A stretch of 64,000 nt of DNA, taken from contig CAWJRG010000009.1 of assembly GCA_963845185.1 (NCBI GenBank), positions 64,001 through 128,000 on the forward strand. The letters are read 5' to 3'. This stretch comes from an uncultured bacterium (GTDB lineage: Bacteria > Oederibacteriota > PGYV01 > CAWJRG01). Below are positions 8,740 through 38,431 of the stretch, piece by piece (within the stretch, counting starts at the first letter, position 1; the number at the start of each line of letters is the position of its first letter). A program made the position numbers and the translations under genes. Below the pieces are notes generated by a model. That model saw nothing but the letters and a program-made list of their open reading frames with translations. It did not search any database and was not told the DNA's origin.

Positions 8740-11700
8740 ATGAAAAAAATACTATTTGCAATGGTATTTTTGCCAATAACATTTTATGCTTTTGGACAAA
8801 ACCTTACATATACAAATACAAACGGCATGTGGGAATGGGATAGTAATGTAATTGGATATTATCAGCTTGGGACAAGTTCAATGATTGAGACCGTAAACGG
8901 ATATAACGCCTCGGTCGTAGGCACGTTAAGTTATTATACAAGCGGACCGAATGTGCCGCCAAATGCGTGGACATCGGGAAGCTGCACAAGCAGTGGGAAT
9001 TTCGGCGACTATATAATGTGGCAATCGGCCGTGAATTTCGTTTACGGGCCTTCCTCGACACAGCCGTTTTCAATTGAATGGTGGATGTATCTTGTGCCGG
9101 AATGGACCGAGGGTACGGATGCGCAGACAATTTATGCCACCAGTGACTGGATAGGAAATAATGCCGGATATAATTTTATCATGGACTGGCAAAATACGAC
9201 ATACCAGGCAAGGTACTGGTACTGGAATTTTATCGGGCAATGGAGTGACATATCCACCAGCGATGAAACTACATGGGAAGACTGGGCCGTTACTTACGAC
9301 GGCCAGGGCAATGTAAATATTTATAAAAACTGCAATTTTGTGAGGACGCTTCCCGTGTCGTCGGCGGAAAATGTATTTTACGAAATGTACAGCAATGATC
9401 CGAATGAATTTGTGATGTGGCTGGATTATTCCCAGGGTACCGAACGGCCGTTCACGGGGTATCTGGCTGATATAATCGTATCGAATGTCGCAAGAGTATG
9501 CGTGTCGCCGATACCTGTAACCCCGACGTTTACTGCGACAAATACATCTACGTATACGCCCACATTTACCGTAACAAACACGCCGACAGATACAATGACA
9601 CCAACTTATACAAATACGACGACATATACACCGACATGGACGCCGACATATACCGTGACGCCTACAAATACGCCACTACCGACTATTTGTATAGCATCAC
9701 CGGTACCAACTCCTTGTTTTATTTCAATCTGGGGCAGCGGGGGAATAGACAATGGGCTGTTTGGAAGCCCGTGGGGACTGGCAGTAAACAGCAGCGGCGA
9801 CGTGTTTGTAGCGGATTATACCAATGATTTAGTTGATGAACTCGGTCCGTCAGGAAACATTATGAATCAATGGAACGGCAATATAGCCGGAAGCGGCAAC
9901 GGGCCGTTTAGCGGGCCTGCCGGAATATCATTTGACAGCCTCGGGGACGTTTATGTTGTGGACTCGGATAATAACAGAGTCGAAGAGTTTAACAGCACGT
10001 TTACAACACTTATAGCACAATGGAATGGTTCCACAAGCGGTAGCGAGTTTAATTTCCCTCTTGGTGTAGCAGTAGATAGTAACGGAATGTATGTTGCAGA
10101 CTATGAAAATAACAGAATCGTAGAATTCAACAGTACAGGAGGATATGCGGGACAATGGAACGGTTCCGAAACCGGCAGCGGGCCGCTTGACGGCCCTGCT
10201 GCGGTAGCCGTGAACAGCGTCGGGGACGTTTATGTTGTAGACTCGGGTAATAACAGAATCGTAGAATTCAACCTTGGAGGAGCATATATAGCGCAATGGG
10301 ATTACGCCGGCCCCGGTAACGAGATGTTTAATTATCCTCTTGGAATAGCAATAGACGGCAGCGGAAATATGTATGTTGCGGATACGGATAATAACAGTAT
10401 CGAAGAATTTAACAGCGCAGGATGTTATACAGCACAATGGAGCACCGGAGCAAACACCAGCCCATGGGGAATAGCAGTAGACAACAGCGGTGACGTGTAT
10501 ATTTCGGATGCGGATAATGCAATAATCGAAAAATTCGGCCCGTGTGCGACATTTACAAATACGCCGACAAATACGTTTACATGCACCCCGACAGGTACCG
10601 CTACATTGACGTTGACGGGCACACCGACAGCAACGCCGACAGGTACAATAACCGAAACAAACACACCGACAAACACTCCGACGGCAACGGCGACATGGAC
10701 GCCGACAAATACGCCGACAAGTACGCAAACATATACAAATACACTGACGAGTTCACCAACATATACGAATACGCCAACAAGTACACCAACAAATACACCG
10801 ACAAGCACGCAAACATATACGGATACCCCGACGTGGACAGTTACAAAGACATCAACAAGTACACCGACATATACAGATACACCGACTGCAACCCCGACAT
10901 ACAGCCCAACTTATACGCCAACGTGGACGCGAACAAATACTTTGACTACATCGCCTACTTGGACGCCAACAAATACGAATACGCTGACATGGAACCCGAC
11001 AAATACAAGGACTTCTTCATTTACAAACACGGTTACACCAACTTGGACGACGACAAACACGCCGACAAGCACAAATACGCCTACATACACATTTACGCCG
11101 ACAAACACAAGAACACAGACAAATACGCTGACGAATACGCCTCTGCCGACAAACACATTCCCGCCGACATTTACAAATACCGTGACAGGAACGATTACGC
11201 CGACATATACAAATTCCCCGACATACACAATTACACCATCGTCAACAAATACAGGGACTTCGACATTTACGCCGACAAATACACCAAACTATACGCACAC
11301 GATTACGCCGACGAATTCACCGACATATACGAACACGCCGACAGGCACAAGGACACCGACATATACATATTCCCCGACAATAACAAAGACATCAACAAAT
11401 TCGCCAACAGGAACGCGTACACCTACATATACAACATCCCCGACAATTACAGTTTCACCGACGAATACGCCAACAGGCACAAGGACGTCTACATATACAT
11501 ATTCACCAACAGTTACAAAGACATCAACATGGACGCCGACAGGTACAAGGACACCGACATACACAATATCACCAACAATTACAATGACACCGACGATAAC
11601 GCTGACAGGAACAATAACATATACATATACAAATACGCTAACTTTCACTATTACACTTACTGTTACTTTAACGTTTACTGTAACGCCGACTATAGAATGC

Positions 11701-14700
11701 AATTATAATGTCTATAGCGATGCAACCGAAACTTATGTGGAATATGACGAGAATGGTAATTATTTAGACCAAGGAAACGCCGTCATAGTTACAGAAAAAC
11801 CAACTAACTGGACACTACCATGCGGCGGGGGAAACTGGATTTCAACTAATAACCAAGGTTCAACTGGCACAAGCGACACAAGCGGGAATAGGTTGGATTT
11901 TTCAAAAACTATTTCAATAGCACCTGGAATATATAATGCGTATATTTTAATGGCAGGCGATGATAATTTTAATATGACTATTAATGCTCCTTCCTATACT
12001 TTCTCTGATGTCGCGTATTGCGACGGTGAGCCCAACTGTGCCCCTGGCATGGGCGGATCATGTTATTGCAGTTGTGAGTATTTTACAGCTAATGGCGTTC
12101 CTGGCGGGACAATTAATATAGAAACCGAGGCTATCGATGTATATGGCTCTGATTACGGGGAGTCGTATTCAATTTGTTTCCAATTGGTGGCTACAGTGAC
12201 GATAACTCCGACATCCACAATATCGCCGACAATAACGCAGACTTATACAATAACGCCGACTTTTACGATTACAGGCACATTTACTCCAACTGCGACATCG
12301 ACCGATACGCCGACTACAACGCCTACATACAGCCCGACATGGACAGGGACATGGACGCCCACGAATACGCCGACGAGAACACCGACATGGACGCCGACAA
12401 ATACGCCGACTTCAAGCCCGACATTTACACTGACCTCGACGTACACATACACGGTGACGGATACATACACATTTACTTACACGGATACAAGCACGTATAC
12501 AGACACGCCAACATATACGATAACGCCTACGTATACAATTACTGTAACATTTACCAGGACAGCAACGCCGACATGGACACCGACAAATACGCCAACTTCA
12601 AGCCCGACAATCACAAAGACATCTACATATACGTACACGGTAACAGATACTTACACGTTTACTTATACGGATACAGCTACGTATACAGTGACGCCGACAT
12701 ATACGAAAACGCCTACCTGGACACCGACAATAACTGTAACGTCTACAAATTCACCGACATATACGAATTCACCGACAATTACAGATACAAGGACAGATAC
12801 GATGACACCGACACGCACCTACACCATAACCGACACTTATACATTTACGTATACCGTGACGCGTACAGATACGCCAACCTGGACGCCGACCATTTCGCCG
12901 ACACGTACAATAACAAAAACTTTCACGAACACGCCGGTAGTTTCAAGGACATGGACTGGGACAAGCACGCCAACGTATACAATCACGAGGACATCGACAG
13001 TTACATATACCATAACCGACACTTACACATTTACCTTTACCGTGACGCGCACAAACACGCAGACAATAACGCCGACTATAACAAAGACAAATACCAATAC
13101 ACCGACAAAGACAATATCGGCGACGTACACAAACTCACCGACGCTAACAGTTTCGTACACCATGACAGATACATATACATATACTTATACGGCAACACCA
13201 ACCAGAACACAGACGCCGACAAATACAATAACAATGACAATTACTGTTTCGCCTACGCCTACAATATCGCCGACAATAGCGATAAACCTTGTAATAATCA
13301 GTATAACAGTATCGCCGGCAAGCGCGGCAAGCGGGCAGGATATAACAGTAGTGATGCTGGTGCAGAATATAGGACAAAATACCGCGGATAACGTAGTACC
13401 GTCCAGGTTGTCGCTGTCCGGAGAAGGAAAGGCTGTACTGGTAAGCGGGCCAAGCCCTGCAAGCACGATAATAGCGGGAGGAGGCGCGCAGGCATCGTTC
13501 ACATGGGTGTATGCTATTGTAATATGCAACAATATGACATTCAGCGGGACAGTAAGCGGCACTGACGCGGTGGACGGAGCTGGCATGACAAGTGCGCCGG
13601 CAACAAGCAACGAATTCACATGCGCAACACCGACAATATCAGCCACATATACGCCGACAGCGACAAAGACCAGTGTCCCACCATGTTTGCAATATGAACT
13701 AAGTATGTACGGTACTACAACTGGGGACTCGTTTTTGATTGATTCAAGTAACAGGATAGTGATAACAGGGGGAATATCTACAGGAGGATTTGCAATTGAA
13801 AGGTTGTTTTTAAATGGTTCGCATGATACGAGTTTTGCAAACGCTGGTTATTACAATATATCATCGGGAACACTCATGAAGAGTCACGTGGCAATAGACT
13901 CAACCGGTGAAATAATAATTGCAACAGGCGCATGGTGGCAAAATGGTTTGGCAAATACCGGGGCAGCAATGCAGATATGGAAAATAAAAAGCAATGGCAG
14001 CGGCCAGGATTGGAATGTGTCGGTAAACGGATTGGCAGGAACCGGTTTGGACAATGGCACCACATGTGGCAATGGAATTGCCATAGACAGTTCAAACAAT
14101 ATTATTGTAGCGGGATGTCATTATAACGCTTCAGGAAACTGGGATGCTGTCGTATGGAGATTCCTGCCTAATGGCACGCTTGATACAACAAATTTTGGAG
14201 GAGGCAATGGCTATGTTGTTTTGGACAATATTGCGGGGACAGGGAGTAATGATTACGGCTGGGATGTGAAAATTGATTTAAATGGAAACATTGTTCTGAC
14301 GGGGATAAGTCAAAGTCAGGATTACACAACAACAGAAATGTTTACTGCCAGACTTCATTATGACGGAACAAAAGACAATACTTTTAGCGGAGGTCTTATT
14401 ACATCTCTTGTAGGTTCTGGTTCTGGTGGATATGCATTAACTATAACTGCGGATAATAGCGTAGTAGTTACAGGAGCAACAGGAGGTTTTAGTACTTTCG
14501 GTGTAGGCGGAGGCATGGCGGTATGGAAAATAAATAACGACGGTTCACCCAATACAAGTTTTAACGGCGGTTATAATACTTATAATCCAGGAAACCATAT
14601 GTACACTGGAAACTCTGTTGTTTTAGATAATTGCGGAAAAGTACTGATTGCAGGATTAGAGTCGGGTGTAGGGAACAATTCCTCTCAAGATATGGTAATA

Positions 14701-16377
14701 TGGAGATATAATTCTAACGGTAGCCCGGATAATACCTTTAATGGAGGAACAAATATTTATAACTTAAACGCCGGGGCAATGCCTGGCTATTGCATAAAAT
14801 ATGTTTCATCATCCGGAGAAATATTAGTATCAGGGAACACAGTTGCAGGTGTTGAATTGTGGAAATATGAAGATTTATGCGCGTGCAACGTTGACACACC
14901 AACTATTACACCAACACCAACATTTACTCCTGCATGTGTACCTACATGGCAGTATGTAGGAACAGAGGGTTTCTCGTCCGGCAGCGTGGAATTTACTTCA
15001 ATGGCCATGTACGGCATAACTCCATATATGGCATATATGGATTCCGGTGATAGTTCATATGCAAGTGTAATGCAATACTCATCAGGTGGAGGTTGGAGTT
15101 ATGTGGGAGGAAGTCGTGGAATTTCAGGGGTACCTGCACTTTACGAATCATTAGCTGTTGATAGCGCTACTGGAAATTTATATCTTGCCTTCGCAAATCC
15201 AGCGCAATCATGGGCATTGACAGTTATGGAATGTGTATCAGGAGTATGGAGTACATTAGTTTCTACCAGCTGTCAAGTCGGCACAACAACTCCTGATTGC
15301 ATCTCTGTATTTGTATACAACAGCATTCCTTATGTCGCATTCCAGAATATCAGTTCAAATGGTAATAAGGCCAAAGTAATAGAATATAATTCATCTGGAC
15401 CGTCATGGACGAATTTAGGCTATGCTTCTTCTGCAGAGGCGGATTATTTATCTTTAAATGTTGTAAATGTTGGCGGAACAGGAGTGCCTTATCTTGCATA
15501 TAAAGATAAAAGTATCTCAAATAACGGGCTCACTGTAATGGAATATTCGGGAACCCCAACTCCAAGCTGGAATAACGTCGGTGGAACAGGTGTATCGAGC
15601 GGACAGGCAAATTATATCTCAATGGATGTTATTGTGAATCCTTCAGGAACACCGGTACCGTATGTGTCATTCAGCAATCAAACAAGTGGAATCGGGGAAG
15701 TTATGGAATATAATAATTCAAGTTGGGGCATAGTGGGCAATAACCCATTTGCAACATCGACAAGTATTGGTTACACATCGTTGTTCGTCTATAACAATAT
15801 TCCTTATGTGGCTTATGAAGACAGCTCTCATAGCGGTAAAATGACTGTTATTAATTATACTGGAGGGACAAGCTGGAACACACTAGGAAGCCAGGATTTT
15901 ACTTCCGGTGATGCTCAATCAATAACGCTGCAAATAGACAGCAATGGAGTGCCTTATGTAGGATATGAGGATGGCGGTGATTCTAATTACGCATCTGTAA
16001 TGACCTTTTCATGTTCAGGAATGGCCGGAAAGGAAAATTATACTGGGCTTTTATCAAAACCAATACCTACCTCGACAGTAGTATACGAAAGTCTTGATGC
16101 AAAAAATGTATATTGTTTTCCAAACCCGAGCAAAGGCGAGACGACTATAAGGTTTCCCCTTGCAGAACCTTCAGACGTAAAATTAATTATTATGGATATA
16201 AACGGTAAAAGGGTATGGACGCATGATTTAAGCTCCAGCGAGACGCTAGCCGGAATAAATAAAATAATCTGGAACGGTGTTAATGATTCGGGTTTGCAGG
16301 TATCAAACGGAGTTTATTTGTTTGTGATTGAAGCAGGTAATAAAAGAGTTGAGAAAAAAATAGCAATTATAAAATAA
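8740..16377 (+). CDS. Giant secreted Thr-rich multidomain protein (LamG-like, NHL repeats, Cys-rich beta domain, Ig-like, delta-60-like repeats, PYVAY propeller) with FlgD/T9SS type A-like C-terminal domain
   Basis: Signal peptide; FSIEWWMY..AVTYDG..FTGYLADI; repeated PxGIAVDxxGxVYVADxxNNR; RFLPNGTLDTTNF-type repeats; tail NVYCFPNP..IMDINGKRV..WNG..VSNGVYLFVI..KKIAIIK; long (Thr-X)n linkers. Confidence 0.85.
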   Translation: MKKILFAMVFLPITFYAFGQNLTYTNTNGMWEWDSNVIGYYQLGTSSMIETVNGYNASVVGTLSYYTSGPNVPPNAWTSGSCTSSGNFGDYIMWQSAVNFVYGPSSTQPFSIEWWMYLVPEWTEGTDAQTIYATSDWIGNNAGYNFIMDWQNTTYQARYWYWNFIGQWSDISTSDETTWEDWAVTYDGQGNVNIYKNCNFVRTLPVSSAENVFYEMYSNDPNEFVMWLDYSQGTERPFTGYLADIIVSNVARVCVSPIPVTPTFTATNTSTYTPTFTVTNTPTDTMTPTYTNTTTYTPTWTPTYTVTPTNTPLPTICIASPVPTPCFISIWGSGGIDNGLFGSPWGLAVNSSGDVFVADYTNDLVDELGPSGNIMNQWNGNIAGSGNGPFSGPAGISFDSLGDVYVVDSDNNRVEEFNSTFTTLIAQWNGSTSGSEFNFPLGVAVDSNGMYVADYENNRIVEFNSTGGYAGQWNGSETGSGPLDGPAAVAVNSVGDVYVVDSGNNRIVEFNLGGAYIAQWDYAGPGNEMFNYPLGIAIDGSGNMYVADTDNNSIEEFNSAGCYTAQWSTGANTSPWGIAVDNSGDVYISDADNAIIEKFGPCATFTNTPTNTFTCTPTGTATLTLTGTPTATPTGTITETNTPTNTPTATATWTPTNTPTSTQTYTNTLTSSPTYTNTPTSTPTNTPTSTQTYTDTPTWTVTKTSTSTPTYTDTPTATPTYSPTYTPTWTRTNTLTTSPTWTPTNTNTLTWNPTNTRTSSFTNTVTPTWTTTNTPTSTNTPTYTFTPTNTRTQTNTLTNTPLPTNTFPPTFTNTVTGTITPTYTNSPTYTITPSSTNTGTSTFTPTNTPNYTHTITPTNSPTYTNTPTGTRTPTYTYSPTITKTSTNSPTGTRTPTYTTSPTITVSPTNTPTGTRTSTYTYSPTVTKTSTWTPTGTRTPTYTISPTITMTPTITLTGTITYTYTNTLTFTITLTVTLTFTVTPTIECNYNVYSDATETYVEYDENGNYLDQGNAVIVTEKPTNWTLPCGGGNWISTNNQGSTGTSDTSGNRLDFSKTISIAPGIYNAYILMAGDDNFNMTINAPSYTFSDVAYCDGEPNCAPGMGGSCYCSCEYFTANGVPGGTINIETEAIDVYGSDYGESYSICFQLVATVTITPTSTISPTITQTYTITPTFTITGTFTPTATSTDTPTTTPTYSPTWTGTWTPTNTPTRTPTWTPTNTPTSSPTFTLTSTYTYTVTDTYTFTYTDTSTYTDTPTYTITPTYTITVTFTRTATPTWTPTNTPTSSPTITKTSTYTYTVTDTYTFTYTDTATYTVTPTYTKTPTWTPTITVTSTNSPTYTNSPTITDTRTDTMTPTRTYTITDTYTFTYTVTRTDTPTWTPTISPTRTITKTFTNTPVVSRTWTGTSTPTYTITRTSTVTYTITDTYTFTFTVTRTNTQTITPTITKTNTNTPTKTISATYTNSPTLTVSYTMTDTYTYTYTATPTRTQTPTNTITMTITVSPTPTISPTIAINLVIISITVSPASAASGQDITVVMLVQNIGQNTADNVVPSRLSLSGEGKAVLVSGPSPASTIIAGGGAQASFTWVYAIVICNNMTFSGTVSGTDAVDGAGMTSAPATSNEFTCATPTISATYTPTATKTSVPPCLQYELSMYGTTTGDSFLIDSSNRIVITGGISTGGFAIERLFLNGSHDTSFANAGYYNISSGTLMKSHVAIDSTGEIIIATGAWWQNGLANTGAAMQIWKIKSNGSGQDWNVSVNGLAGTGLDNGTTCGNGIAIDSSNNIIVAGCHYNASGNWDAVVWRFLPNGTLDTTNFGGGNGYVVLDNIAGTGSNDYGWDVKIDLNGNIVLTGISQSQDYTTTEMFTARLHYDGTKDNTFSGGLITSLVGSGSGGYALTITADNSVVVTGATGGFSTFGVGGGMAVWKINNDGSPNTSFNGGYNTYNPGNHMYTGNSVVLDNCGKVLIAGLESGVGNNSSQDMVIWRYNSNGSPDNTFNGGTNIYNLNAGAMPGYCIKYVSSSGEILVSGNTVAGVELWKYEDLCACNVDTPTITPTPTFTPACVPTWQYVGTEGFSSGSVEFTSMAMYGITPYMAYMDSGDSSYASVMQYSSGGGWSYVGGSRGISGVPALYESLAVDSATGNLYLAFANPAQSWALTVMECVSGVWSTLVSTSCQVGTTTPDCISVFVYNSIPYVAFQNISSNGNKAKVIEYNSSGPSWTNLGYASSAEADYLSLNVVNVGGTGVPYLAYKDKSISNNGLTVMEYSGTPTPSWNNVGGTGVSSGQANYISMDVIVNPSGTPVPYVSFSNQTSGIGEVMEYNNSSWGIVGNNPFATSTSIGYTSLFVYNNIPYVAYEDSSHSGKMTVINYTGGTSWNTLGSQDFTSGDAQSITLQIDSNGVPYVGYEDGGDSNYASVMTFSCSGMAGKENYTGLLSKPIPTSTVVYESLDAKNVYCFPNPSKGETTIRFPLAEPSDVKLIIMDINGKRVWTHDLSSSETLAGINKIIWNGVNDSGLQVSNGVYLFVIEAGNKRVEKKIAIIK

Positions 16378-16422
16378 GAATTTGTTTGTAGATAAGGGAT
16401 CAATTAACAATTATAATAATTA

Positions 16423-16454
16423 TTAATGAAAAAAATGTTCCTTTATGTTAAATT
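16423..16454 (+). promoter_or_regulatory. Conserved 32-bp motif upstream of DUF2723 gene 1 (extended -10-like TG-T-TAAATT)
   Basis: TTAATG-A-rich..ATGTTAAATT with identical spacing at 22457-22488 and 35989-36020. Confidence 0.55.
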
Positions 16455-18828: not shown

Positions 18829-18840
18829 TAGGTAATCTAG

Positions 18841-19269
18841 TTATTTCTTCACATTAGCCGTATTTGAAGTTCCGTTCGTATTACTTTCAAGCTGCTTTAC
18901 CCACGCGTTATATTCAGGCTCGACTTCTTTCAAACGTTCCCTTGCTTTTTTCACCCACTCACTTTCCGGAGGAGTAAACAAATCAACGACAGTCTTGTAA
19001 GCTACATAAGCGTTTTTGAGGGAATTGTCGTCCATAAGGAACTCATATTCAAGTTCGGTTATTTTCTTTTTATCAAGTTCGTCTTTGTAATAAGCCGCTT
19101 TTGCGTCGGGATTCTTGTAAAAATTAAGGAATTTCTCGCCTTCCAGATATTCATGCTTTGCCCTTCTCATAACATCTAAATCAGCCAATGCGAAAAATAT
19201 TATTAATGTAATTACTACCAATCCGGCTATAAAAAGATATTCCTTGTTCTTTTCCTTGTTTTCAAACAT
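18841..19269 (-). CDS. Hypothetical single-TM protein with a TPR-like helical domain; paralog of 38443-38877
   Basis: TAAGGAGG RBS before ATG at 19269; near-identical protein at 38443-38877. Confidence 0.8.
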   Translation of the reverse strand: MFENKEKNKEYLFIAGLVVITLIIFFALADLDVMRRAKHEYLEGEKFLNFYKNPDAKAAYYKDELDKKKITELEYEFLMDDNSLKNAYVAYKTVVDLFTPPESEWVKKARERLKEVEPEYNAWVKQLESNTNGTSNTANVKK

Positions 19270-19285
19270 GATTTCGGCCTCCTTA

Positions 19286-19380
19286 GAGCCCGTTGATTTT
19301 GCCAAGCGTCAACAGTGAAGGCAAAATTTTACGGGGTCTTATACCCGCTCAAGTCCGGTTTCTATACGGACAAGCGGTAT
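19286..19380 (-). repeat. Two-hairpin intergenic repeat element, copy B
   Basis: Runs from the stop codon of the 19380-19604 gene to the RBS of the 18841-19269 gene; closely similar to 48442-48541. Confidence 0.85.
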
Positions 19381-19730: not shown

Positions 19731-19759
19731 ATTATAAGATGAAACTTATAATCTGTCAA
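19731..19759 (-). promoter_or_regulatory. Sigma70-type promoter for the minus-strand small genes
   Basis: TTGACA-17 nt-TATAAT on the minus strand; homologous promoter at 38910-38938. Confidence 0.75.
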
Positions 19760-19783
19760 CAGCTCGAAAGACGTTTGAAAAAA

Positions 19784-22392: not shown

Positions 22393-22526
22393 AGCTCGTA
22401 TTTGCGAGATAAGGAGCAAAGCCCATTATCTTCTACAACAAATAATTTACCAAATTTTAATGGAAAAAATATTATTTCATGTTAAATTAATAGATAGCAG
22501 TATATAATAATTAAAAGGATAATTTA

Positions 22527-30700: not shown

Positions 30701-31270
30701 ATAGCATACCAGGATCTGGCAAATTCCAATAGAGCAACAGTCATGACATATACAGGAGTAAGCTGGACAGCAGTAGGGTCGGCAGGATTCTCAAATTCAA
30801 ATGGGGCAGTACAATATACATCATTAAGTATCAGTAATGGAACGCCATATTTGGCATATCAGGATGTTACAAATTCGAATGCAGCTACAGTGATGACGTA
30901 TAATGGAGTAAGCTGGACAGCATTAGGGAAAACAGATTTTTCACCCGGCGGTGCAAATTATACGTCATTGTTTGTGAATAATGGAATACCGTATGTAGCA
31001 TATCAGGATGTCCAGAATAATAATTATGCATCTTTGATGAAATTTGACTGCGGCTCGTCAAATACGCCAACGCTTACGATTACAATGACGCCGACAATAA
31101 CAATCACAGCAACGCCGGCACAGACGATAACCCCGCTGACAAATATGTCATTGTGGTCGAACAGGACAGTAGGCACCGGAAACCTTGGTTCTTATTATGA
31201 CAGGTATCTGCATACGGGAGCATGGATGAAATTTGGGAACAATTACCGAAGTGTGTTTTTGACAGGAGAG

Positions 31271-32546
31271 GTAATATGAAAAGAAGGCACCCCCAGGTAT
31301 AATGGTAACGTGGCGTGTGTTAGCACCCACAACATTAAAAACCTAGGAGGTGCCGTATGTTGTATCTTGGTGTGGACGTGCACAAGAACGTGTCTTATGT
31401 TACAGCGGTGACAAAAGAAGGTCAAGTCAGATTTAGAGGAGCTCTTTCAAACAGGACAGAGGATTTTAAGAAAATGCTGGCTGAGATTGGAGAGGAATGC
31501 GAAGCGGTAATTGAGACAACGTACTGCTGGGGAGTAGTGTACGACCTTTGGAGGAACTCGGCGTAAAGACAAAATTGGCGCATGCGCAGAAGCTGAGAGC
31601 GATAGCGGAAAGCCAGATAAAAAACGATGTAAGGGATTCGGAGATATTGGCCCATTTGTTGAGAGCAAATTTAATACCGGAAGTATATGTGCCGTCGAAG
31701 GAAATAAGGCTTAAGAAGAACATATTAAGAGAGAGGCAATTCCTGGTGAGCACACGGACAGCTGTAAAAAATAGGGTGCACCAGTTATTGACAAGGAACC
31801 ATATAGATACAAGCGTACACAGCGATTTGTTTGGGAAAAAAGGCAGGGACACAATAGAAAGAGTCGAACTGGTAAAAAGCGAACGTGAATTGCTGAACCT
31901 CGAGATGCATTTGGTGGACGAACTTAATACAGGAATAAAGGCAACAGAAAAACTTGCAAAAGAAATGACAGGGAAAGATAGATATGTGGAAATAATAAAG
32001 ACGGTACCTGGATTTGGAGAAGTTCTTTCAAAGGTAGTGGCGTTTGAAATAGTTGATATAAATAGATTCTCTAAGGCAAAACGATTAGCGTCATATGCCG
32101 GATTGGTTCCAAGCGAATATGCGAGTAATAAAACAATACATAGAGGTCCGATAATAAGGCAGGCAAACAAACATTTAAAATGTGCGTTTGTAGAAGCAGC
32201 TTGGACAGCGGTAAGAAGTTCTTTGTATTTTAAATCAATATACTTGAACGTAAAAAGCCGCAGAGGTTCAAACAAGGCAATAATAGCAGTTGCAAGGCAC
32301 ATGGCAGAAAATAATATTTAAAATGCTCAAAGAAAATCGTGGTTATGAAGAAAGGATATATAAAAAATATACTTATAGGCCGCTCTGTTTTCCCCTGAGT
32401 CAGTAAATCTTCTGGGCTGTGGGAGAGGTTAGAGGGCCTTAATTTGATTTGTTATAATGCCGGGTGAAAAGAACTGCGGCGAAGAGAAGGTTAATTAACA
32501 TTTTAGCCCTTATACTTGGATTTGTGCTTGACAAGCCTTTTCAGAG
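31271..32546 (+). mobile_element. IS110-family insertion sequence (IS1111-like ends), 1276 bp
   Basis: AGAG at both junctions (31267-31270, 32543-32546); subterminal inverted repeats TGAAAAG (31277) / CTTTTCA (32537); excision restores the host reading frame. Confidence 0.9.
31357..32406 (+). CDS. IS110 DEDD recombinase/transposase, with two 1-nt frameshifts (about 31547 and 32310)
   Basis: YLGVDVHK, AVIET, KNDVRDS (DEDD); TVPGFG..ASYAGLVPSEYAS; AGGAGG RBS. Confidence 0.88.
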
Positions 32547-33439
32547 AAGGGGAATAACGGTTTGACAAACACGGCGGAATATACCGACGACGGCACCACA
32601 TGGTACGCGAATTTAACTTATACAGGAAATCCGTTCCCGGCAATGCAGGGAGCTGCAATGTGTGCGGACGGCAGTAACTTCTGGATTTTTGGAGGGAAAG
32701 GTTTGGGAGATGTTCAACAGAACGGAATATACAAGTCTGTATCTGGGACTGTATGGGCAGCAGTTACGCCGGTTGCGACATTTACAGTAAGGTCATTCCA
32801 CAAAGCGCTGTATTACAACAATTATTATTATATAATTGCAGGAGACATCGGCGGAGTCAACGGCTTTTTGAAGGATGTTTGGAGGTCACATGATGGTAAG
32901 ACATGGACACAGATAACAAGTAACGCAGCATTCGGAGCCAGGAGACTGTTCGCGGCATTTGTATGGGATAACAGGATGTGGGTTGTAGGAGGAGAAGGTT
33001 CGCCGTCCAACAACGTATGGTGGTCGGTAGACGGGATAACATGGATAGAAACTGCAAGCGCAGGCGGTTATGATAATGCTTATTCATTACAGGGAATAAG
33101 TTATAAGAATGTGCCATATTTATTCACAAGCAGTGGCAATGTCTATGTTGGAACAATGTCTGATCTGAGCAATTGGTCGCAGATAACTACTACCGGTTAT
33201 ACGGATCCGATTAATTTTGCTTGGGTAGGAATAGCCGGCAATACAGGCAATCCGCATATGCTGGTAAGGGGCGGGGGCAACAATATGTGTTGCTCAAACA
33301 TAAATGACGGTACACCGAGTATAACACCGACAAGTACGTATACAAGAACATCTACTCCCACGAATTCGCCTTCGCCAACACGGTCGTTAACAAAGACACC
33401 GTCTGCAACATCTACGAATACACCTACAAGTACGCCAAC

Positions 33440-35400
33440 ATATACAATAACCTGTACGGCTACACCAGCATTGACAATAACTCCATTGACAAACATGTCG
33501 TTGTGGTCAAGCAGGACAGTAGGCACTGGAAATCTCGGTGCTGCGTATGACAAGGAACTGCACACAGGTGCGTGGATGCAGATAGGGGGAGTTTACAGAA
33601 GCATATTCATGACAGGCGGCAGCAGCGGAACGAGCTTGACAAACACTGCGGAATACACCAACGAGGGAGATGTATGGTACGCGAATGTAACATACACAGG
33701 AAATCCATTCCCTGCAATGCAGGGTGGGGCGATGTGTGCTGATGGTTCGTATTACTGGCTATTCGGCGGAAAAGATTCCAATAATAACCAGTTGAATGGC
33801 ATATACAAATCAATATCGGGTACGGTATGGGCAGCAGTTACGCCGGTAGCGACATTTACAGCCAGGTCATTCCACAAAGCGCTGTATTACAACAGTCACT
33901 ATTATATAATCGCCGGAGATAACGGTTCATTCCTGAAAGATGTGTGGAGTTCAAACGATGGAAAGACATGGTCGCAGGCAACAGCTAATGCGGCATTTGG
34001 AACAAGAAGGTTGTTCGCTGCATTTGTCTGGGATAACAGGATGTGGGTAGTAGGAGGAGAAGGTGCAGCGACAAACAACGTATGGTGGTCTTTAGATGGA
34101 ATAACATGGATAAAAACTGCAAGTGCAGGCGGTTATGACAATGCTTATGCACTACAGGGAATAAGCTACAACGGCGTTCCATATTTGTTCACGGACCAGG
34201 GACATATTTATGTAGGTACAATGTCTGATTTAAGCAGCTGGACGCAGGTGAGCACGACAAATTACACAAATCCCGGCAGTTTCGCCTGGGTAGGAATAGC
34301 AGGAAATACAGGAAATGCACATCTAGTGGTTGCTGGTGGCGGAAGCCAAGTATGCTGTGCGGAAATAAACGGAGGCACACCGACACTCTCGGCTACAGTT
34401 TCAAAAACATTAACAATATCCCCAACATGTACGAATACACCGACAAGTACGCCTACACACACAATAACCTGTACGGCGACACCTGCGTTGACGATAACGC
34501 CTCTGACAAACATGTCGTTGTGGTCAAGCAGGACGGTAGGCACTGGAAATCTCGGTGCTGCGTATGACAAGCAACTACATACAGGAGCATGGATGCAGAT
34601 AGGAGGCGTTTATAGAAGTATATTTTTAACCGGTGGCAGCAGCGGAACGAGCTTGACAAACACGGCAGAATATACAAACGAGGGAGATGTATGGTATGCA
34701 AATATAACATATACGGGAAATCCATTTCCTGCGATGCAGGGCGGAGCAATGTGTGCTGACGGCTCGAATTACTGGCTGTTTGGAGGGAAAAATTCCGGAG
34801 GAACCCAGTTGAATGGCATATACAAATCCTCAGATGGAAAAGTGTGGGCAGCGGTGACGCCGGTTGCGACATTTACGGCAAGGTCATTCCATAAGGCGCT
34901 GTATTACAACAACAACTATTATATAATTGCCGGAGATAACGGTTCGTTCCTGAAGGATGTGTGGAAATCCTCTGACGGCAAGACATGGTCATCAATAACA
35001 GCTAATGCAGCTTTTGGAATTAGGAGGCTGTTTGCGGCATTCGTATGGGATAACAGGATGTGGGTGGTGGGAGGAGAAGGTGTTTCGACTGACGTATGGT
35101 GGTCAATAGACGGTATAACGTGGATAGAAACGGCAAGTGCTGGCGGTTATGATAATGGCTATGCATTGCAGGGAATAAATTACAATGGCGTACCGTATTT
35201 GTTCACGGACCAAGGACATATTTATGTAGCTACGATGTCTGATTTAAGCAGTTGGACGCAGGTGAGCACGACAAATTACATAAATCCCGGCAATTTCGCA
35301 TGGGTAGGTATAGCCGGCAATACAACCAACCCGCACATAGTGGTAGCGGGCGGCGGCGGACAAGTCTGCTGTGCAGAAATAAATGGTGGCACACCAACAC
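33440..35400 (+). repeat. Tandem intragenic duplication, period 1017 bp (339 aa); an older third unit is split by the IS
   Basis: ACAATAACCTGTACGGC recurs at 33444 and 34461; translated units are near-identical. Confidence 0.85.
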
Positions 35401-35912
35401 TCTCGCCTACAATTTCAAAAACATCAACCATATCACCAACATCTACTATATCACCGACAAAAACTGTGACAATGACAATCACTGTTACAATGACAACTAC
35501 AATTGCCGCGGATATTTTTGCCGACAACCTAAAGAAACCTACGCTTACGCCGCAGGTGACTCCGCCTGAAAAAATATGTGAGAAGAATACGTACAACTTC
35601 CCGAATCCGTGCAATGGGCCGACAACAATAAGATTCTCCATGGATATGCCCGCAGATGTAAATATAGGAATATATGACATGAATGGCAAACTGGTTTGGA
35701 ACAAGAGCCTAAATGCAGGGGTGATTAATGAGGGCATAAACTATGTAATATGGGATTTGAAAAATGACGATGGTGTTGAAGTGTCAAACGGAGTATACTT
35801 TCTTGTGATCCAGGCAGAAGATAAGGTCGTAAAGAAAAAGATCGCCGTTATCAGGTGAGAGACAGAAAACAATAATGTTAAAACATTAAAGGCAGATTCA
35901 GTTAGTCAATAT

Positions 35913-35946: not shown

Positions 35947-36055
35947 GTTTATAGCACGCATATTGTATTGCTATAAATTCTGAAATTATTAATGAAAAAC
36001 ACCTTCTTTTATGTTAAATTACTTCAAGTTTAATAAAAAAATAAAAAGGTCAAAA

Positions 36056-38431
36056 ATGCTAAAAAAAATTAAGGACGCTATAATATTATTAGTTTGTTTA
36101 ATTGGCATATTTCAATTGTATCTTTATACCATGGTTCCTGCGTTTAAGAGCAACGATTCGCCTGAAACAATAACTGCGTCATATACGCTAGGCTTTGGAC
36201 ATCCACCCAGTTATCCGCTATTTACAATGTCTGGAAAGGTGTTTTCGTTGTTGCCTGTCGGCTCGCCAGCCTTCAGGCTCAACTCATTTTCCATATTTCT
36301 TGCTTTGATGGTATTATTACTGTCTTATTTTATCATCAAACAAATTAGTTTCTATGTCTTCGGTTATGAAAATAAGATAATAAATTTTTTTGGCGTTTTT
36401 ATGCTTGCATTTTCTTATACCTTTTGGAACCAGGCAATTGAGGCAAAAGGCGGCATATATATATTTAATCTTTTTTTTCTAGCAATACTGATTTATTTGA
36501 GCCTGGAATTGTTTAAAGGATTTAATATTAGATATTTTTATCTTATGCCGTTCGTTTATGGGCTTTCGCTTGCCAATCACTGGCCGAGCATGATAATCCT
36601 TTCCCCTGTTTTTGGATACTTATTTTTTAGATACAGAGGGAAAATAAATCAGAAAAATATTATGACAATCTCATTGTTATTGCTCACCGGTTTAAGCCCG
36701 TATCTTTACATGCTGGCAAGAGGCGGAACAGACGGTATTTTTATTTTTACAGCAAGGCCAAATACATGGGACAATTTTTGGTGGACAGTATTAAGGGTCG
36801 GGTACGGCAACATCGAACCCCCTCCAACCTTACAACTATATGAAAATCAAATAAAAGAATTTTTCGCGCTTTTATTCAATAATTATTATATTCTGTGGAT
36901 TTTAATGTTTGCAGGCGGATATATCATGAATAAAAGGAATAAAAAACTTTTCTGGTTTTATTTAGGCGCAATTTTAATAATCATTTTTGCAGTCATTATT
37001 TACAATCGCACCGATGAAAGTTTGATGTGGGTTATCGATATTTTTCTTATCCCATCCCAATATATATTAATGTTATTTATTGTCACAGGCATATATTTAA
37101 TTCTAAAGCTTTTAAAACAAAAAATTTTCCGGTTCCTGTTTATATTTATTATTTTTATAACAATATTATTTATGGGATATAAGAATTTTGAAAAAAATAA
37201 CAGCAGGTACGATTTTCAGGCCTATGATTTTGGCTATAATATTTTAAAAACCATGGATAAGGATAGTTTATATCTTTGTGAAGGCGATTTTAATTATATG
37301 CCGTGTTCTTATATTCAGATGGTCGAAAAACAAAGACAGGATATAAAACTTGTAACCGTAGATCCTTTGCCTTTTAAGTGGGGAATGGATAATTTTACGA
37401 AAAAATATGGGAATATTCCGCTGAAGGAATTTGAACCTGTGTATAACTTGATTAGTATCATTAAATATTTTTCCGATAATAATATTGAAATATTTAAAAG
37501 TACTATTGCGCCACACATGGACGGATTAAAATTGGAATTAAATTTCAAACAAAAAGGATTGTTGAAAAAATATCTAAAAAATGACAAACCAATGTCGCCT
37601 GAAATATTCGAACTTTATTCTTACAATAGGGGATTATATGATAAATATATCGACTATAGCAGAATAACTTCAGAACTTGTTATGTGGTATCCTTATGGCA
37701 TGATGTCACAAGCTGATGATTTTTTATTTGAAAAGGAACCGGCCCAAGCAATACAACTTTATAAAAAAGCCCTGCTTTTCCCTTTTAAAAATGAAGTAAA
37801 AAATAGCGAATCGCATATTTATTATAATATGTCTTTTGCTTACAAATATTTGAATGATACAGATGACCAAATAAAGTATCTAAAAAAAACCATTGAAATA
37901 CAAAGAGATTATAACCAGGCTTACGAATTATTAGGCATGATTTATTACAATGAAAAGCTCTGGCCAATGGCAAAGGATATGTTTGAAAACGCAATAAAAT
38001 ACGGCAGTGAGAATAAGATGGTTTTACAACAGTATATAAATCAGATGGGATATATTGATATGCCAACACAACTTGAATCCTTATTTAATCAGGCTATTGC
38101 TTTATTGGCGGCCGGAAAGTATTTAAAGGCAATGGATTATTTTGATTTTTTACTCGAATACAGTTATAAGGCAAATGAAATATATAAAAATATAGGGGTA
38201 TATAATTTTAAAAACAATAATTTTGAAGAAGCATTAAAATATTTTCAGGAAGCAAGAGAATGGGATAAAACCGTAGGAATTTATGGATATATTGCATACA
38301 CATATTATAAATTAGGACAAACAGATAAAGCATTAGATACTTTAAAAGAAGGTATACAAACAGACGGAAACGACCCGCAACTGGTGAATTTATACAACCA
38401 AATTGAGCAGGCGGGAAAGAAAGAAAAATAA
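36056..38431 (+). CDS. DUF2723/TMEM260-like GT-C glycosyltransferase with TPRs, copy 3
   Basis: NDSPE..LGFGHPPSYPL, AIEAKGGIY, GLSLANHW, CEGD; start chosen by alignment to copy 1 (MLKK); shares GNDPQLVNLYNQIEQ end with copy 1. Confidence 0.85.
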   Translation: MLKKIKDAIILLVCLIGIFQLYLYTMVPAFKSNDSPETITASYTLGFGHPPSYPLFTMSGKVFSLLPVGSPAFRLNSFSIFLALMVLLLSYFIIKQISFYVFGYENKIINFFGVFMLAFSYTFWNQAIEAKGGIYIFNLFFLAILIYLSLELFKGFNIRYFYLMPFVYGLSLANHWPSMIILSPVFGYLFFRYRGKINQKNIMTISLLLLTGLSPYLYMLARGGTDGIFIFTARPNTWDNFWWTVLRVGYGNIEPPPTLQLYENQIKEFFALLFNNYYILWILMFAGGYIMNKRNKKLFWFYLGAILIIIFAVIIYNRTDESLMWVIDIFLIPSQYILMLFIVTGIYLILKLLKQKIFRFLFIFIIFITILFMGYKNFEKNNSRYDFQAYDFGYNILKTMDKDSLYLCEGDFNYMPCSYIQMVEKQRQDIKLVTVDPLPFKWGMDNFTKKYGNIPLKEFEPVYNLISIIKYFSDNNIEIFKSTIAPHMDGLKLELNFKQKGLLKKYLKNDKPMSPEIFELYSYNRGLYDKYIDYSRITSELVMWYPYGMMSQADDFLFEKEPAQAIQLYKKALLFPFKNEVKNSESHIYYNMSFAYKYLNDTDDQIKYLKKTIEIQRDYNQAYELLGMIYYNEKLWPMAKDMFENAIKYGSENKMVLQQYINQMGYIDMPTQLESLFNQAIALLAAGKYLKAMDYFDFLLEYSYKANEIYKNIGVYNFKNNNFEEALKYFQEAREWDKTVGIYGYIAYTYYKLGQTDKALDTLKEGIQTDGNDPQLVNLYNQIEQAGKKEK

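What the first reader, a model, noticed from the sequence alone, without database searches (positions are those of the whole stretch)
8740..38431. Three tandem modules: giant Thr-rich secreted protein plus its own TMEM260-like O-glycosyltransferase
Seen: three times in a row a very Thr-rich protein ending in an FlgD/T9SS-A-like tail is followed on the same strand, within about 110-200 bp, by a DUF2723-like GT-C + TPR gene (8740/16492, 19784/22527, 24900/36056). The cargo domains differ but the pairing is kept. Established: human TMEM260 (DUF2723) is a protein O-mannosyltransferase; as far as I know bacterial DUF2723 proteins have no assigned substrate. Inference: a substrate-paired bacterial mucin-like O-glycosylation system in which periplasm-facing GT-C/TPR enzymes modify the (Thr-X)n linkers before export. 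This differs from the cytoplasmic GtfA/B-SecA2/Y2 system for serine-rich repeat proteins.
Basis: partly seen in the sequence, partly recalled or inferred. Interest (0 to 1): 0.87.

Follow-up and report, generated by a model that had tools for sequence, protein, structure and literature searches.

The report
TMEM260-like glycosyltransferases beside Thr-rich proteins
Three membrane sugar-transferases related to the human enzyme TMEM260 each sit just behind a threonine-rich surface-protein gene, but the pairing looks like a recent quirk of one genome that carries 25 such enzymes, not a conserved enzyme-and-substrate system.

Summary
Three intact PF11028 (TMEM260-like/DUF2723) GT-C + TPR genes each lie 114-197 nt behind a Thr-rich gene with a FlgD_ig/Por_Secre_tail domain. 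Two of the three "cargo" genes are broken in this assembly: cargo 2 by a 1-nt frameshift, with no signal peptide; cargo 3 by a frameshift and an IS110 insertion.

The enzyme assignment is strong. The profile matches solved human TMEM260 at E 4.8e-87, the model (pLDDT 93) has a GT-C fold, and the catalytic Asp is conserved.

The "substrate-paired" reading is not supported:
- The genome has 25 paralogues, and only 6-7 follow a tail gene (about 1.3 expected).
- Outside this genome the adjacency is rare: 1 of 96 loci in ten relatives and 1 of 34 metagenome loci.
- Copy numbers of the two families do not correlate over 41 genomes (rho 0.09).
- Tails and enzymes show no co-phylogeny.
- The junctions share duplicated or recombined blocks, so there are at most about four independent origins.
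- Each enzyme gene has its own family-specific promoter-like cassette.

PorV-like barrels follow tail genes in 24 of 32 cases, so the method does detect real pairing.

Most likely these are periplasmic protein O-glycosyltransferases from a lineage-specific paralogue burst, acting in trans. Their acceptors are unknown. The scan has already noted bacterial TMEM260-like loci in other genomes.

The parts
35..2983 (+). Context: 982-aa membrane protein with a PMT_2-type GT-C domain
   Evidence: Pfam PF13231, E 1.2e-10. No match among solved structures by sequence.
3027..7864 (+). Context: GT2 glycosyltransferase, NAD-dependent epimerase/dehydratase, Asn-synthase-type amidotransferase and methyltransferase, directly 5' of cargo 1
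   Evidence: Pfam. By PDB sequence search the GT2 is generic (SpsA/GalT1-like), not specifically a polyprenyl-phosphate sugar synthase.
8740..16377 (+). Cargo 1: intact 2545-aa secreted protein with signal peptide, NHL propeller, long (T-x)n linkers, DUF5122/delta-60 propeller, 'PYVAY' repeats and a FlgD_ig/Por_Secre_tail domain
   Evidence: Thr 20%.
16428..16454 (+). Promoter-like motif GAAAAA-N-TTyrTGkTAAATT, about 38 nt before the start of GT-C #1
   Evidence: All 7 genome-wide matches to the pattern lie before PF11028 genes. Sequence shown.
16492..18828 (+). GT-C #1: TMEM260-like, 778 aa (11 TM helices + alpha/beta domain + TPR). Arg replaces the conserved His at position 49.
18841..19305 (-). 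154-aa single-TM protein of no known family, convergent with GT-C #1. One of only 3 copies in the genome, each at the 3' end of a PF11028 gene.
19739..21445 (+). Cargo 2, first piece: (T-x)n region (Thr 33%) plus the start of the 'PYVAY' repeats. No signal peptide.
21418..22392 (+). Cargo 2, second piece, after a 1-nt frame break near 21441: 'PYVAY' repeats plus Por_Secre_tail
22463..22488 (+). The same promoter-like motif before GT-C #2
22527..24521 (+). GT-C #2: TMEM260-like, 664 aa. A chimera: the promoter and first ~55 codons are of the 14-member clade type, and the body is sister to C5:99757.
24900..28535 (+). Cargo 3, first piece: signal peptide, Propeptide_C25 + Peptidase_C25, CarboxypepD_reg, 'PYVAY' repeats (the ORF opens at 24885)
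28523..31279 (+). Cargo 3, second piece, after a 1-nt frame break near 28527: 'PYVAY' repeats, TP linkers and the start of the first Kelch unit
31265..32553 (+). IS110-family insertion element interrupting cargo 3
   Evidence: Pfam Transposase_20 and DEDD_Tnp_IS110. Five copies at 99.8-100% identity in the genome.
32562..35858 (+). Cargo 3, third piece: three Kelch-propeller units separated by TP linkers, then FlgD_ig/Por_Secre_tail (TIGR04183, 35.7 bits against a cut-off of 23)
35994..36020 (+). The same promoter-like motif before GT-C #3. It is preceded by a terminator-like hairpin (GCGGA-8 nt-TCCGC-TTTTT) after cargo 3.
36056..38431 (+). GT-C #3: TMEM260-like, 791 aa, about 50% identical to #1 (52% in A1; 50% in A3)
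38443..38877 (-). 144-aa paralogue of the small single-TM protein, convergent with GT-C #3
39379..40980 (+). Fourth tail-bearing protein of the window (533 aa). It is followed by a PorV-like barrel, not by a GT-C.
41014..42504 (+). PorV-like outer-membrane barrel family member (496 aa), 34 nt after the tail gene
   Evidence: jackhmmer links it to the family hit by NF033710.

Best explanation
The three genes encode intact bacterial members of the TMEM260 (PF11028/DUF2723) family. Each has an 11-helix GT-C core, an alpha/beta 'palm' domain and a C-terminal TPR domain.

Inferred from homology with the solved human enzyme: the N-terminus is cytoplasmic, and the catalytic loop and TPR domain face the periplasm. 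The enzymes take a sugar from a polyprenyl-phosphate donor and put it on Ser/Thr of extended stretches of Sec-exported proteins, and the TPR domain recruits the acceptor.

Shown here: the row of three is not a conserved enzyme-substrate cassette. It comes from a lineage-specific burst that gave this genome 25 paralogues. New copies carry a private promoter-plus-5' cassette, exchange domains with one another, and have several times ended up behind rapidly duplicating giant Thr-rich tail-bearing genes.

Inferred: the enzymes act in trans on a pool of exported clients. The Thr-rich tail proteins are the most plausible client class but are unproven, and the neighbour is not a dedicated substrate.
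For: Family and fold.
- PF11028 hits at E 1e-22 to 1e-24.
- The profile of 64 homologues matches solved human TMEM260 (9rql) at E 4.8e-87 over profile positions 14-515. A single sequence gives E 3e-22.
- AlphaFold model: pLDDT 93.2, pTM 0.90.
- GT-C fold: Z 26.1 to ALG12, 24.9 to ArnT, 24.8 to Pmt1-Pmt2.

Active site.
- D34/E37 align with TMEM260 D52/E55, R247/Y250 with R264/Y267, and D410 with D441 (residue roles from passages of PMC10214176 and bioRxiv 10.64898/2026.03.17.711096).
- All 25 paralogues keep D34, E37 and Y250. D410 is kept in 24 of the 24 that reach that position.

Burst.
- 25 copies here against 0-16 in 40 relatives.
- A 14-member clade is almost entirely own-genome.

Pairing not conserved.
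- 1 of 96 evaluated loci in ten well-assembled relatives has a tail gene directly upstream.
- 1 of 34 evaluable metagenome loci has one, plus one Thr-rich giant without a tail.
- Copy numbers of PF11028 and PF18962 give Spearman rho 0.09 over 41 genomes. One genome has 32 tails and 0 GT-C; another has 3 tails and 16 GT-C.

Duplication and recombination.
- Tails of cargo 2 and cargo 3 are 67% identical, while their GT-Cs are about 30% identical.
- GT-C #2 is a chimera whose positions -74 to +164 match the other clade at 72-83% nt identity.
- The TM core, palm and TPR of #1 and #3 each have different nearest paralogues. The nearest TPR to #1 belongs to a paralogue with no cargo neighbour.
- Tail blocks and the 5' cassette recur together at similar divergence, leaving about four junction origins at most.

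Separate transcription.
- A family-specific promoter-like motif has 7 of 7 genome matches before PF11028 genes.
- A terminator-like hairpin follows cargo 3.

Positive control for the method: PorV-like barrels follow tail genes in 24 of 32 cases.
Against: - Within this genome the adjacency is enriched: 6-7 of 25 against about 1.3 expected, p 0.0015 uncorrected.
- It occurs only among lineage-specific duplicates, 0 of 9 core orthologues. That pattern is also what recruitment of new enzymes to new clients would give.
- The expanded clade descends from an orthogroup that, here and in at least six relatives, lies three genes from a small Thr-rich tail protein and a PorV-like barrel.
- Within the same order, copy numbers do correlate (rho 0.58 over 23 genomes).
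- No donor, sugar or acceptor is shown. Core paralogues sit beside Wzy_C/TPR, YfhO-like and GT4 genes, so some family members may act on glycans rather than on proteins.
- GT-C #1 has Arg where 24 of 25 paralogues keep the His that contacts mannose in TMEM260.
Confidence: 0.6

Rival explanations
1. Each GT-C/TPR enzyme is a dedicated O-glycosyltransferase for the (Thr-X)n linkers of the protein encoded just upstream, a cis-encoded enzyme-substrate pair comparable to pilA-tfpW.
For: - Enrichment within the genome: 6-7 of 25 against 1.3 expected.
- The arrangement is seen at five further PF11028 genes at four loci on two other contigs.
- It arises only in new duplicates.
- Two sporadic cases exist elsewhere, L061 and L128.
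- Precedent: TfpW is a GT-C with a periplasmic TPR domain, encoded directly after its substrate gene (bioRxiv 10.1101/2020.04.19.049825, passages).
- The TPR domain of TMEM260 selects the acceptor peptide (bioRxiv 10.64898/2026.03.17.711096, passages).
Against: - Not conserved: 1 of 96 and 1 of 34 loci outside this genome.
- About 147 of 154 tail genes have no adjacent GT-C.
- No co-phylogeny. Similar cargos (tails 67-78% identical) sit beside GT-Cs whose TPR domains are under 30% identical. The nearest TPR to #1 belongs to a paralogue beside a GGDEF-type gene (motif read by eye in the translation; no family search run).
- Two of the three cargos are disrupted while all three enzymes are intact.
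- The genes are separate transcription units, each enzyme with its own promoter-like cassette.
- Junctions share ancestry, which cuts the number of independent events to about four.
Confidence: 0.15
2. The enzymes are not protein glycosyltransferases. They add sugars to a lipid-linked or cell-surface glycan (LPS, capsule or S-layer glycan), and the TPR domain serves as a scaffold. Their position next to surface-protein genes is then incidental.
For: - The fold is as close to ArnT and ALG12 as to Pmt1/2 (Z 24.9, 26.1, 24.8).
- Conserved core paralogues lie in operons with Wzy_C/TPR, YfhO-like and GT4 genes.
- A PMT_2-type GT-C and sugar-nucleotide genes lie just upstream in the window.
- No acceptor is known for any bacterial member.
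Against: - The only sequence-level relative with a solved structure is a protein O-mannosyltransferase.
- The palm Asp that lies next to the acceptor Thr in TMEM260 (D441) is conserved in 24 of 24 paralogues.
- The palm + TPR architecture that binds peptide in TMEM260 is retained.
Confidence: 0.2
3. Pure hitch-hiking. The GT-C copies next to giant genes are functionally redundant or decaying duplicates produced by recombination in a repeat-rich, IS-active region, and the adjacency has no biological meaning.
For: - A truncated paralogue (C5:468901, 334 aa) and a TPR remnant upstream of C11:119005.
- A recently active IS.
- Mosaic genes.
- The His-to-Arg change in #1.
Against: 24 of 25 paralogues are full length, and catalytic residues are kept across 25 copies despite 30-50% divergence. 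This indicates purifying selection on most copies.
Confidence: 0.05

Closest known systems
Human TMEM260 (PF11028; PDB 9rql/9rqm/9rqn), ER protein O-mannosyltransferase of IPT domains
   Same: - Sequence homology across the GT-C core and palm (E 4.8e-87 by profile).
- 11-TM GT-C + alpha/beta domain + TPR architecture.
- D52, E55, R264/Y267 and D441 equivalents conserved.
- The TPR domain lies on the same side of the membrane as the active site.
   Different: - Bacterial, and 25 paralogues instead of a single gene.
- The TPR domain is longer: about 250 aa in #1 and #3 against about 140 in TMEM260.
- No IPT/TIG domain was reported in the neighbouring proteins.
- The R355 equivalent is not conserved.
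- #1 has Arg at the H67 position.
- Donor, sugar and acceptor are unknown.
TfpW of Pseudomonas aeruginosa group IV strains (pilA-tfpW)
   Same: A GT-C enzyme with 11 predicted TM helices and a periplasmic TPR domain, encoded immediately downstream of the gene for the protein it O-glycosylates on Ser/Thr (bioRxiv 10.1101/2020.04.19.049825, passages).
   Different: - In TfpW the gene order is conserved across species. Here it is not.
- The TfpW substrate is a pilin, not a giant tail-bearing protein.
- I did not compare TfpW by sequence with these proteins, because no TfpW sequence was available from a tool.
Eukaryotic TMTC1-4 and POMT/PMT families (client-class-specific O-mannosyltransferases)
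   Same: - GT-C enzymes using lipid-phosphate mannose. TMTCs also carry TPR domains.
- Several enzymes divide protein clients between them (PMC10214176 passages; abstract of PMC11292533 in the listing).
- Pmt1-Pmt2 is a top structural match (Z 24.8).
   Different: No significant sequence match to PMT or TMTC chains in the PDB search (one search returned TMEM260 only). Client partitioning among the 25 bacterial paralogues is hypothetical.
GtfA/GtfB-SecA2/Y2 system of serine-rich repeat adhesins (own knowledge, not checked in a call)
   Same: Giant Ser/Thr-rich surface proteins encoded next to their glycosylation genes.
   Different: That system is cytoplasmic, uses nucleotide-sugar GT-B enzymes and has a dedicated Sec paralogue. 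Here the enzyme is a periplasm-facing GT-C, and the linkage is not conserved.
T9SS type A C-terminal domain cargo with PorV (Bacteroidota)
   Same: The tails match Por_Secre_tail (PF18962; TIGR04183 above its cut-off for cargo 3). PorV-like barrels are present.
   Different: - PorV matches are all below the family cut-off.
- There are 32-41 barrels, and most are paired with a cargo gene.
- SprA_N was not found, but the control genomes were silent too.

Membership tests
TMEM260-like (Pfam PF11028 / DUF2723) | Match to the family HMM above its gathering score | tested here: met
   80.2, 82.2 and 87.2 bits against a cut-off of 24.2.
TMEM260-like (Pfam PF11028 / DUF2723) | Sequence homology with experimentally characterised TMEM260 beyond the Pfam domain (GT-C core, variable module, palm) | tested here: met
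   9rql_A: profile E 4.8e-87 over profile positions 14-515 and chain residues 30-548. Single sequence: E 3e-22 over residues 16-430.
TMEM260-like (Pfam PF11028 / DUF2723) | GT-C fold with about 11 TM helices | tested here: met
   Model pLDDT 93.2. Z 26.1, 24.9 and 24.8 to ALG12, ArnT and Pmt1-Pmt2, with 362-434 residues aligned.
TMEM260-like (Pfam PF11028 / DUF2723) | Catalytic Asp of the first extracytoplasmic loop (TMEM260 D52; D52A is inactive) and the donor/acceptor contacts E55, H67, R264, Y267, D441 | tested here: met
   D34, E37, R247, Y250 and D410 are present in all three window enzymes. H49 is present in #2 and #3 but is Arg in #1. Residue roles come from passages of PMC10214176 and bioRxiv 10.64898/2026.03.17.711096.
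TMEM260-like (Pfam PF11028 / DUF2723) | Extracytoplasmic Rossmann-like palm plus TPR domain | tested here: met
   TPR Pfam hits. An alpha/beta segment at 387-525 and helical repeats at 527-777 in the model. The palm was not searched as an isolated domain.
TMEM260-like (Pfam PF11028 / DUF2723) | Protein O-mannosyltransferase activity with a polyprenyl-phosphate-mannose donor | not testable with these tools
   No biochemical data. A dedicated polyprenyl-phosphate sugar synthase was not identified, and the GT2 at 3027-3980 is generic by PDB search.
Substrate-adjacent GT-C/TPR cassette (pilA-tfpW type) | Enzyme gene immediately downstream of the substrate gene, with the order conserved across related genomes | tested here: not met
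   1 of 96 loci in ten relatives and 1 of 34 metagenome loci. In the own genome, 6-7 of 25.
Substrate-adjacent GT-C/TPR cassette (pilA-tfpW type) | Enzyme and substrate co-diverge | tested here: not met
   Tail groups do not follow the GT-C tree. TPR similarity does not follow cargo similarity.
T9SS type A CTD cargo (PF18962 / TIGR04183) | C-terminal sorting-domain match | tested here: met
   PF18962 at 31.3, 34.6 and 32.9 bits against a cut-off of 27 for cargos 1, 2 and 3. TIGR04183 at 35.7 bits against 23 for cargo 3.
T9SS type A CTD cargo (PF18962 / TIGR04183) | N-terminal Sec signal peptide | tested here: inconclusive
   By eye, cargos 1 and 3 begin with a basic stretch followed by a hydrophobic stretch, and cargo 2 does not. 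No signal-peptide predictor was run.
T9SS type A CTD cargo (PF18962 / TIGR04183) | Core T9SS machinery (SprA translocon, PorV) in the genome | tested here: inconclusive
   SprA_N: no match, but nothing rang in the control genomes either. PorV model: 40 matches, all below the 250-bit cut-off.

The most novel reading that the evidence does not exclude
This bacterium uses a battery of 25 TMEM260-type enzymes as client-specific periplasmic O-glycosyltransferases. Newly duplicated copies, whose palm/TPR modules are shuffled by recombination, are recruited to individual giant Thr-rich surface proteins. That would be a bacterial counterpart of the eukaryotic division of labour among POMT, TMTC and TMEM260, caught in the act of expanding.
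Probability: 0.15. Interest if true: 0.8.

Novelty: new member of a known kind. Interest (0 to 1): 0.42.

Why it matters
In the papers I could search, bacterial TMEM260-family enzymes have no assigned donor, sugar or acceptor. A genome with 25 intact-looking paralogues gives a rich set of natural variants. They have conserved catalytic residues, shuffled acceptor-binding domains and a private promoter, so they could be used to work out what the family does in bacteria and how its TPR domains choose clients.

The negative result also matters. Gene order in one repeat-rich genome is not evidence of an enzyme-substrate pair. The same method shows that the conserved partner of tail-bearing proteins here is a PorV-like barrel.

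Tried and rejected
- Genome-contig scan with the three window enzymes (A1) returned only 2 loci, because the search patterns were too specific.
- The 64-sequence alignment A2 was too diverse for a metagenome scan (error). I built a closer 12-sequence alignment A3 and ran it instead.
- Foldseek against 'pdb' was dominated by TPR proteins, with PglB and STT3 only at TM-score about 0.4. The all-against-representatives search gave the GT-C matches.
- The careful IQ-TREE search did not finish, so the quick tree was used. A FastTree with relatives followed (no support values examined).
- Sequencing runs: none was listed for window 22400-25400, and no RNA holder was listed. The frame breaks, the IS insertion and expression could therefore not be checked, and read laying was not used.
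- SprA_N search: no match, but the control genomes were silent too.
- PMT_2 protein at 35-2983: no solved relative by sequence.
- GT2 at 3027-3980: not specifically DPM1/GtrB/ArnC-like.
- NCBIfam has no model for the GT-C part and gave only TPR hits below cut-off.
- Complex prediction was not run: enzyme-substrate pairs with low-complexity acceptors are poor cases, and the report does not claim binding.
- 'One segmental duplication explains all' was considered and rejected. The three window enzymes are 30-52% identical, and tail-adjacent copies fall in two clades.
- 'Pure chance' was also rejected for this genome.

Full report
**What is there.** The window is G000:C9:64001-128000 of a 3.5-Mb, 11-contig genome that is 99.4% complete.

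Three ORFs match Pfam PF11028 (TMEM260-like, formerly DUF2723) at E 2e-22, 5e-23 and 1.5e-24, each followed by TPR repeats:
- GT-C #1, 16492-18828
- GT-C #2, 22527-24521
- GT-C #3, 36011/36056-38431

Each lies on the + strand, 114, 134 and 197 nt behind a gene that ends in a FlgD_ig/Por_Secre_tail domain.

- Cargo 1 (8740-16377, 2545 aa, 20% Thr) is the only intact cargo.
- Cargo 2 is in two frames, 19739-21445 and 21418-22392. Against the protein's own repeat pattern the break reads as a single-base loss near 21441. It has no signal peptide and no in-frame extension upstream.
- Cargo 3 is in three pieces. There is a single-base loss near 28527.
- Cargo 3 is also interrupted by a 1289-nt IS110-family element at 31265-32553, of which the genome holds five copies at 99.8-100% identity.
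- The frame breaks may be real mutations or assembly errors. No sequencing run was listed, so I could not tell.
All end in the same '...PYVAY.D...' repeat region plus tail (translations), and the tails of cargos 2 and 3 are 67% identical.

**What the enzymes are.**
- A profile of 64 homologues (A2) matches the solved human TMEM260 chain 9rql_A at E 4.8e-87, over profile positions 14-515 and chain residues 30-548. GT-C #1 alone gives E 3e-22, and TMEM260 is its only PDB hit.
- The AlphaFold model of GT-C #1 is confident (pLDDT 93.2, pTM 0.90).
- It has a GT-C fold: Z 26.1 to ALG12, 24.9 to ArnT, 24.8 to Pmt1-Pmt2 and 23.1 to Pmt4.
- Residues 1-380 hold the transmembrane helices, 387-525 an alpha/beta domain and 527-777 TPR-like helices.

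The HMMER alignment pairs active-site residues as follows:

| GT-C #1 | TMEM260 |
|---|---|
| D34 | D52 |
| E37 | E55 |
| position 49 | H67 |
| R247 / Y250 | R264 / Y267 |
| D410 | D441 |

From passages I read, D52A abolishes TMEM260 activity (PMC10214176). The other points come from bioRxiv 10.64898/2026.03.17.711096:
- D52, H67 and Y267 contact the mannose, and R264 the phosphate.
- D441 lies next to the acceptor Thr.
- The TPR domain is necessary and sufficient to bind the acceptor peptide.
- The enzyme acts on extended peptides.

All 25 paralogues of this genome keep D34, E37 and Y250, and D410 is present in 24 of the 24 that reach it. The His is kept in 24 of 25, and the exception is window GT-C #1, which has Arg.

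Membership in the TMEM260 family is therefore well supported. Donor, sugar and acceptor remain inferences.

**How special is the pairing?**

*Within this genome.*
- There are 25 PF11028 genes.
- With an HMM I built from the window's tails and iterated over the genome's ORFs, I found 154 tail-bearing genes among about 3017 called genes.
- Six PF11028 genes lie directly downstream, same strand, of a tail gene. About 1.3 are expected; hypergeometric p = 0.0015, ignoring shared ancestry.
- A seventh follows a tail gene after a 600-nt gap, and an eighth is the second gene of a tandem.
- The other 17 sit beside ordinary genes. By my reading of their translations these are ParB-, UvrC-, RecN- and RNase Y-like genes and ribosomal protein S12; no family search was run on them. 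Others sit beside Wzy_C/TPR, YfhO-like and GT4 genes.

*Outside this genome the pairing almost vanishes.*
- PF11028 occurs in 39 of 41 genomes of the same order or phylum, at 0-16 copies. The own genome's 25 is the maximum.
- In ten well-assembled relatives, including genomes of 3, 5, 20 and 30 contigs, I fetched 100 of 102 matches and could evaluate 96. One (L061) has a tail gene directly upstream, and that gene is not Thr-rich. A handful have tail genes two or three genes away, or downstream.
- Of 48 metagenome loci, 34 could be evaluated. One (L128) has a Thr-rich tail gene directly upstream, and one (L106) has a Thr-rich giant without a tail. Some of these loci duplicate DNA from the genome set.
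- Copy numbers of PF11028 and PF18962 do not correlate over the 41 genomes (Spearman 0.09). The value is 0.58 within the order and -0.58 in the other orders. Counter-examples are 32 tails with 0 GT-C, 60 with 1, and 3 with 16.

**Is it duplication?** Not one recent duplication. GT-C #1 and #3 are about 50% identical (52% in A1; 50% in A3), and #1 and #2 are 30%. Tail-adjacent copies fall in two clades, interleaved with non-adjacent ones.

The junctions nevertheless share ancestry:
- The tails next to GT-Cs fall into group A (C1:72327, C5:311776), group B (C1:87793, cargo 2, cargo 3; 66-78% identical), cargo 1 (about 50-55% to many) and one divergent tail.
- At the DNA level, tail blocks and the GT-C 5' region recur together at similar divergence within groups A and B.
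- GT-C #2 is a chimera. Its positions -74 to +164 match the other clade at 72-83% nt identity, while its body matches C5:99757 at 69%.
- In #1 and #3 the TM core, palm and TPR each have different nearest paralogues. The nearest TPR to #1 (68%) belongs to C5:4156, which has no cargo neighbour.

That leaves at most about four independent junction origins, and the enrichment statistic is correspondingly weak. Similar cargos (2 and 3) sit next to enzymes whose TPR domains are under 30% identical, the opposite of what a client-specific TPR would predict.

A tree that includes relatives (FastTree) shows three things:
- The 14-member clade is almost entirely an own-genome expansion.
- It is sister to the C9:977113 orthogroup.
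- The tail-adjacent state occurs only in lineage-specific duplicates, 0 of 9 core orthologues.

**Transcription.**
- A 26-27-nt promoter-like motif (GAAAAA-N-TTyrTGkTAAATT) ends about 38 nt before the start codon of all three window enzymes.
- All 7 genome-wide matches lie before PF11028 genes, and looser versions precede two more.
- A terminator-like hairpin follows cargo 3.
- The enzymes therefore look like separate transcription units with a family-specific control element, not operon partners of the cargo.

**Positive control and real partner.** The PorV model (NF033710) gives about 32 sub-threshold loci. Of those 32, 24 lie directly downstream, same strand, of a tail gene. A jackhmmer family seeded with window gene 41014-42504 gives 25 of 41. 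In the window itself, the fourth tail protein (39379-40980) is followed by such a barrel, not by a GT-C. The method therefore detects genuine pairing, and the pairing with the GT-C is much weaker.

**What still speaks for a link with Thr-rich tail proteins.**
- The in-genome enrichment.
- Its restriction to new duplicates.
- A conserved cluster, seen here (C9:973313-981395) and in at least six relatives: Wzy_C/TPR, then PF11028, then a sigma-54 response regulator, convergent with a PorV-like barrel and a small Thr-rich tail protein.
- The mechanism of TMEM260, which acts on extended peptides selected by its TPR domain.
- A PMT_2-type GT-C and sugar-modifying genes directly 5' of cargo 1, although the GT2 there is generic.

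**Verdict.** These are new, uncharacterised bacterial members of the TMEM260 family from an unusually large paralogue burst. Most likely they are periplasm-facing protein O-glycosyltransferases acting in trans. The dedicated substrate-pair model is possible but disfavoured (about 0.15), and a non-protein acceptor cannot be excluded (about 0.2).

**Literature.**
- 'DUF2723' occurs in one paper of the library.
- None of the 15 listed of the 27 papers holding 'TMEM260' + 'bacteria' addresses a bacterial member, judging by title and abstract in the listing.
- Searches for bacterial GT-C/TPR O-mannosyltransferases gave TfpW as the nearest bacterial analogue (passages read).
- Supplements were not consulted.

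Earlier notes of this scan describe TMEM260-like loci in 45 other genomes and cargo/PorV-like pairs in at least 8. I treated these as leads only.

**Organism.** The only two named hits of the genome-contig scan, at 38% identity, are labelled 'uncultured Spirochaetia bacterium' and 'candidate division FCPU426 bacterium'.

Noticed in passing
window 39379-42504; genome-wide: Tail-bearing genes are usually followed by their own PorV-like outer-membrane barrel. Of 32 loci hit below cut-off by the PorV model, 24 lie directly downstream, same strand, of a tail gene. A jackhmmer family seeded with window gene 41014-42504 gives 25 of 41. SprA_N was not found, but the control genomes were silent. The scan has noted such pairs in at least 8 other genomes.
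   Followed up: partly
window 16428-16454, 22463-22488, 35994-36020: A 26-27-nt promoter-like motif is specific to PF11028 genes (7 of 7 genome matches). Together with the first ~55 codons it is shared at 72-83% nt identity by paralogues that are otherwise about 30% identical. This looks like a mobile 5' cassette or gene conversion.
   Followed up: partly
window 18841-19305 (-) and 38443-38877 (-); G000:C10:331971-332399: A 142-154-aa single-TM protein with no Pfam or NCBIfam match occurs in exactly three copies. Each is convergent with the 3' end of a PF11028 gene. It could be an accessory subunit.
   Followed up: partly
window 31265-32553: An IS110-family element of 1289 nt, with five copies at 99.8-100% identity in the genome, so recently active. 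Here it splits the first Kelch unit of cargo 3.
   Followed up: yes
window 35-7864: A PMT_2-type GT-C (982 aa), GT2, NAD-dependent epimerase/dehydratase, Asn-synthase-type amidotransferase and methyltransferase run in a row on the + strand, directly upstream of cargo 1. This may be a separate lipid-linked-sugar glycosylation module. The GT2 is generic by PDB search.
   Followed up: partly
L152 (G000:C9:972900-982500) and relatives L024, L030, L041, L044, L059, L132, L134, L136, L137: A conserved cluster: Wzy_C/TPR (O-antigen-ligase-like), then the PF11028 enzyme, then a sigma-54 response regulator, convergent with a PorV-like barrel and a small Thr-rich tail protein. The 14-member paralogue clade descends from this orthogroup.
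   Followed up: partly
window 16492-18828, residue 49: GT-C #1 has Arg where 24 of 25 paralogues, and human TMEM260 (H67, a mannose contact), have His. This may mean a changed sugar specificity or lost activity.
   Followed up: no
L151 (G000:C9:571500-581200): A YfhO-like membrane protein is followed by two tandem PF11028 genes, downstream of spermidine synthase and an arginase-family (agmatinase-type) gene. The arrangement with the ~786-aa upstream neighbour (YfhO-like in this genome; matched in relatives by length only) is conserved in relatives.
   Followed up: no
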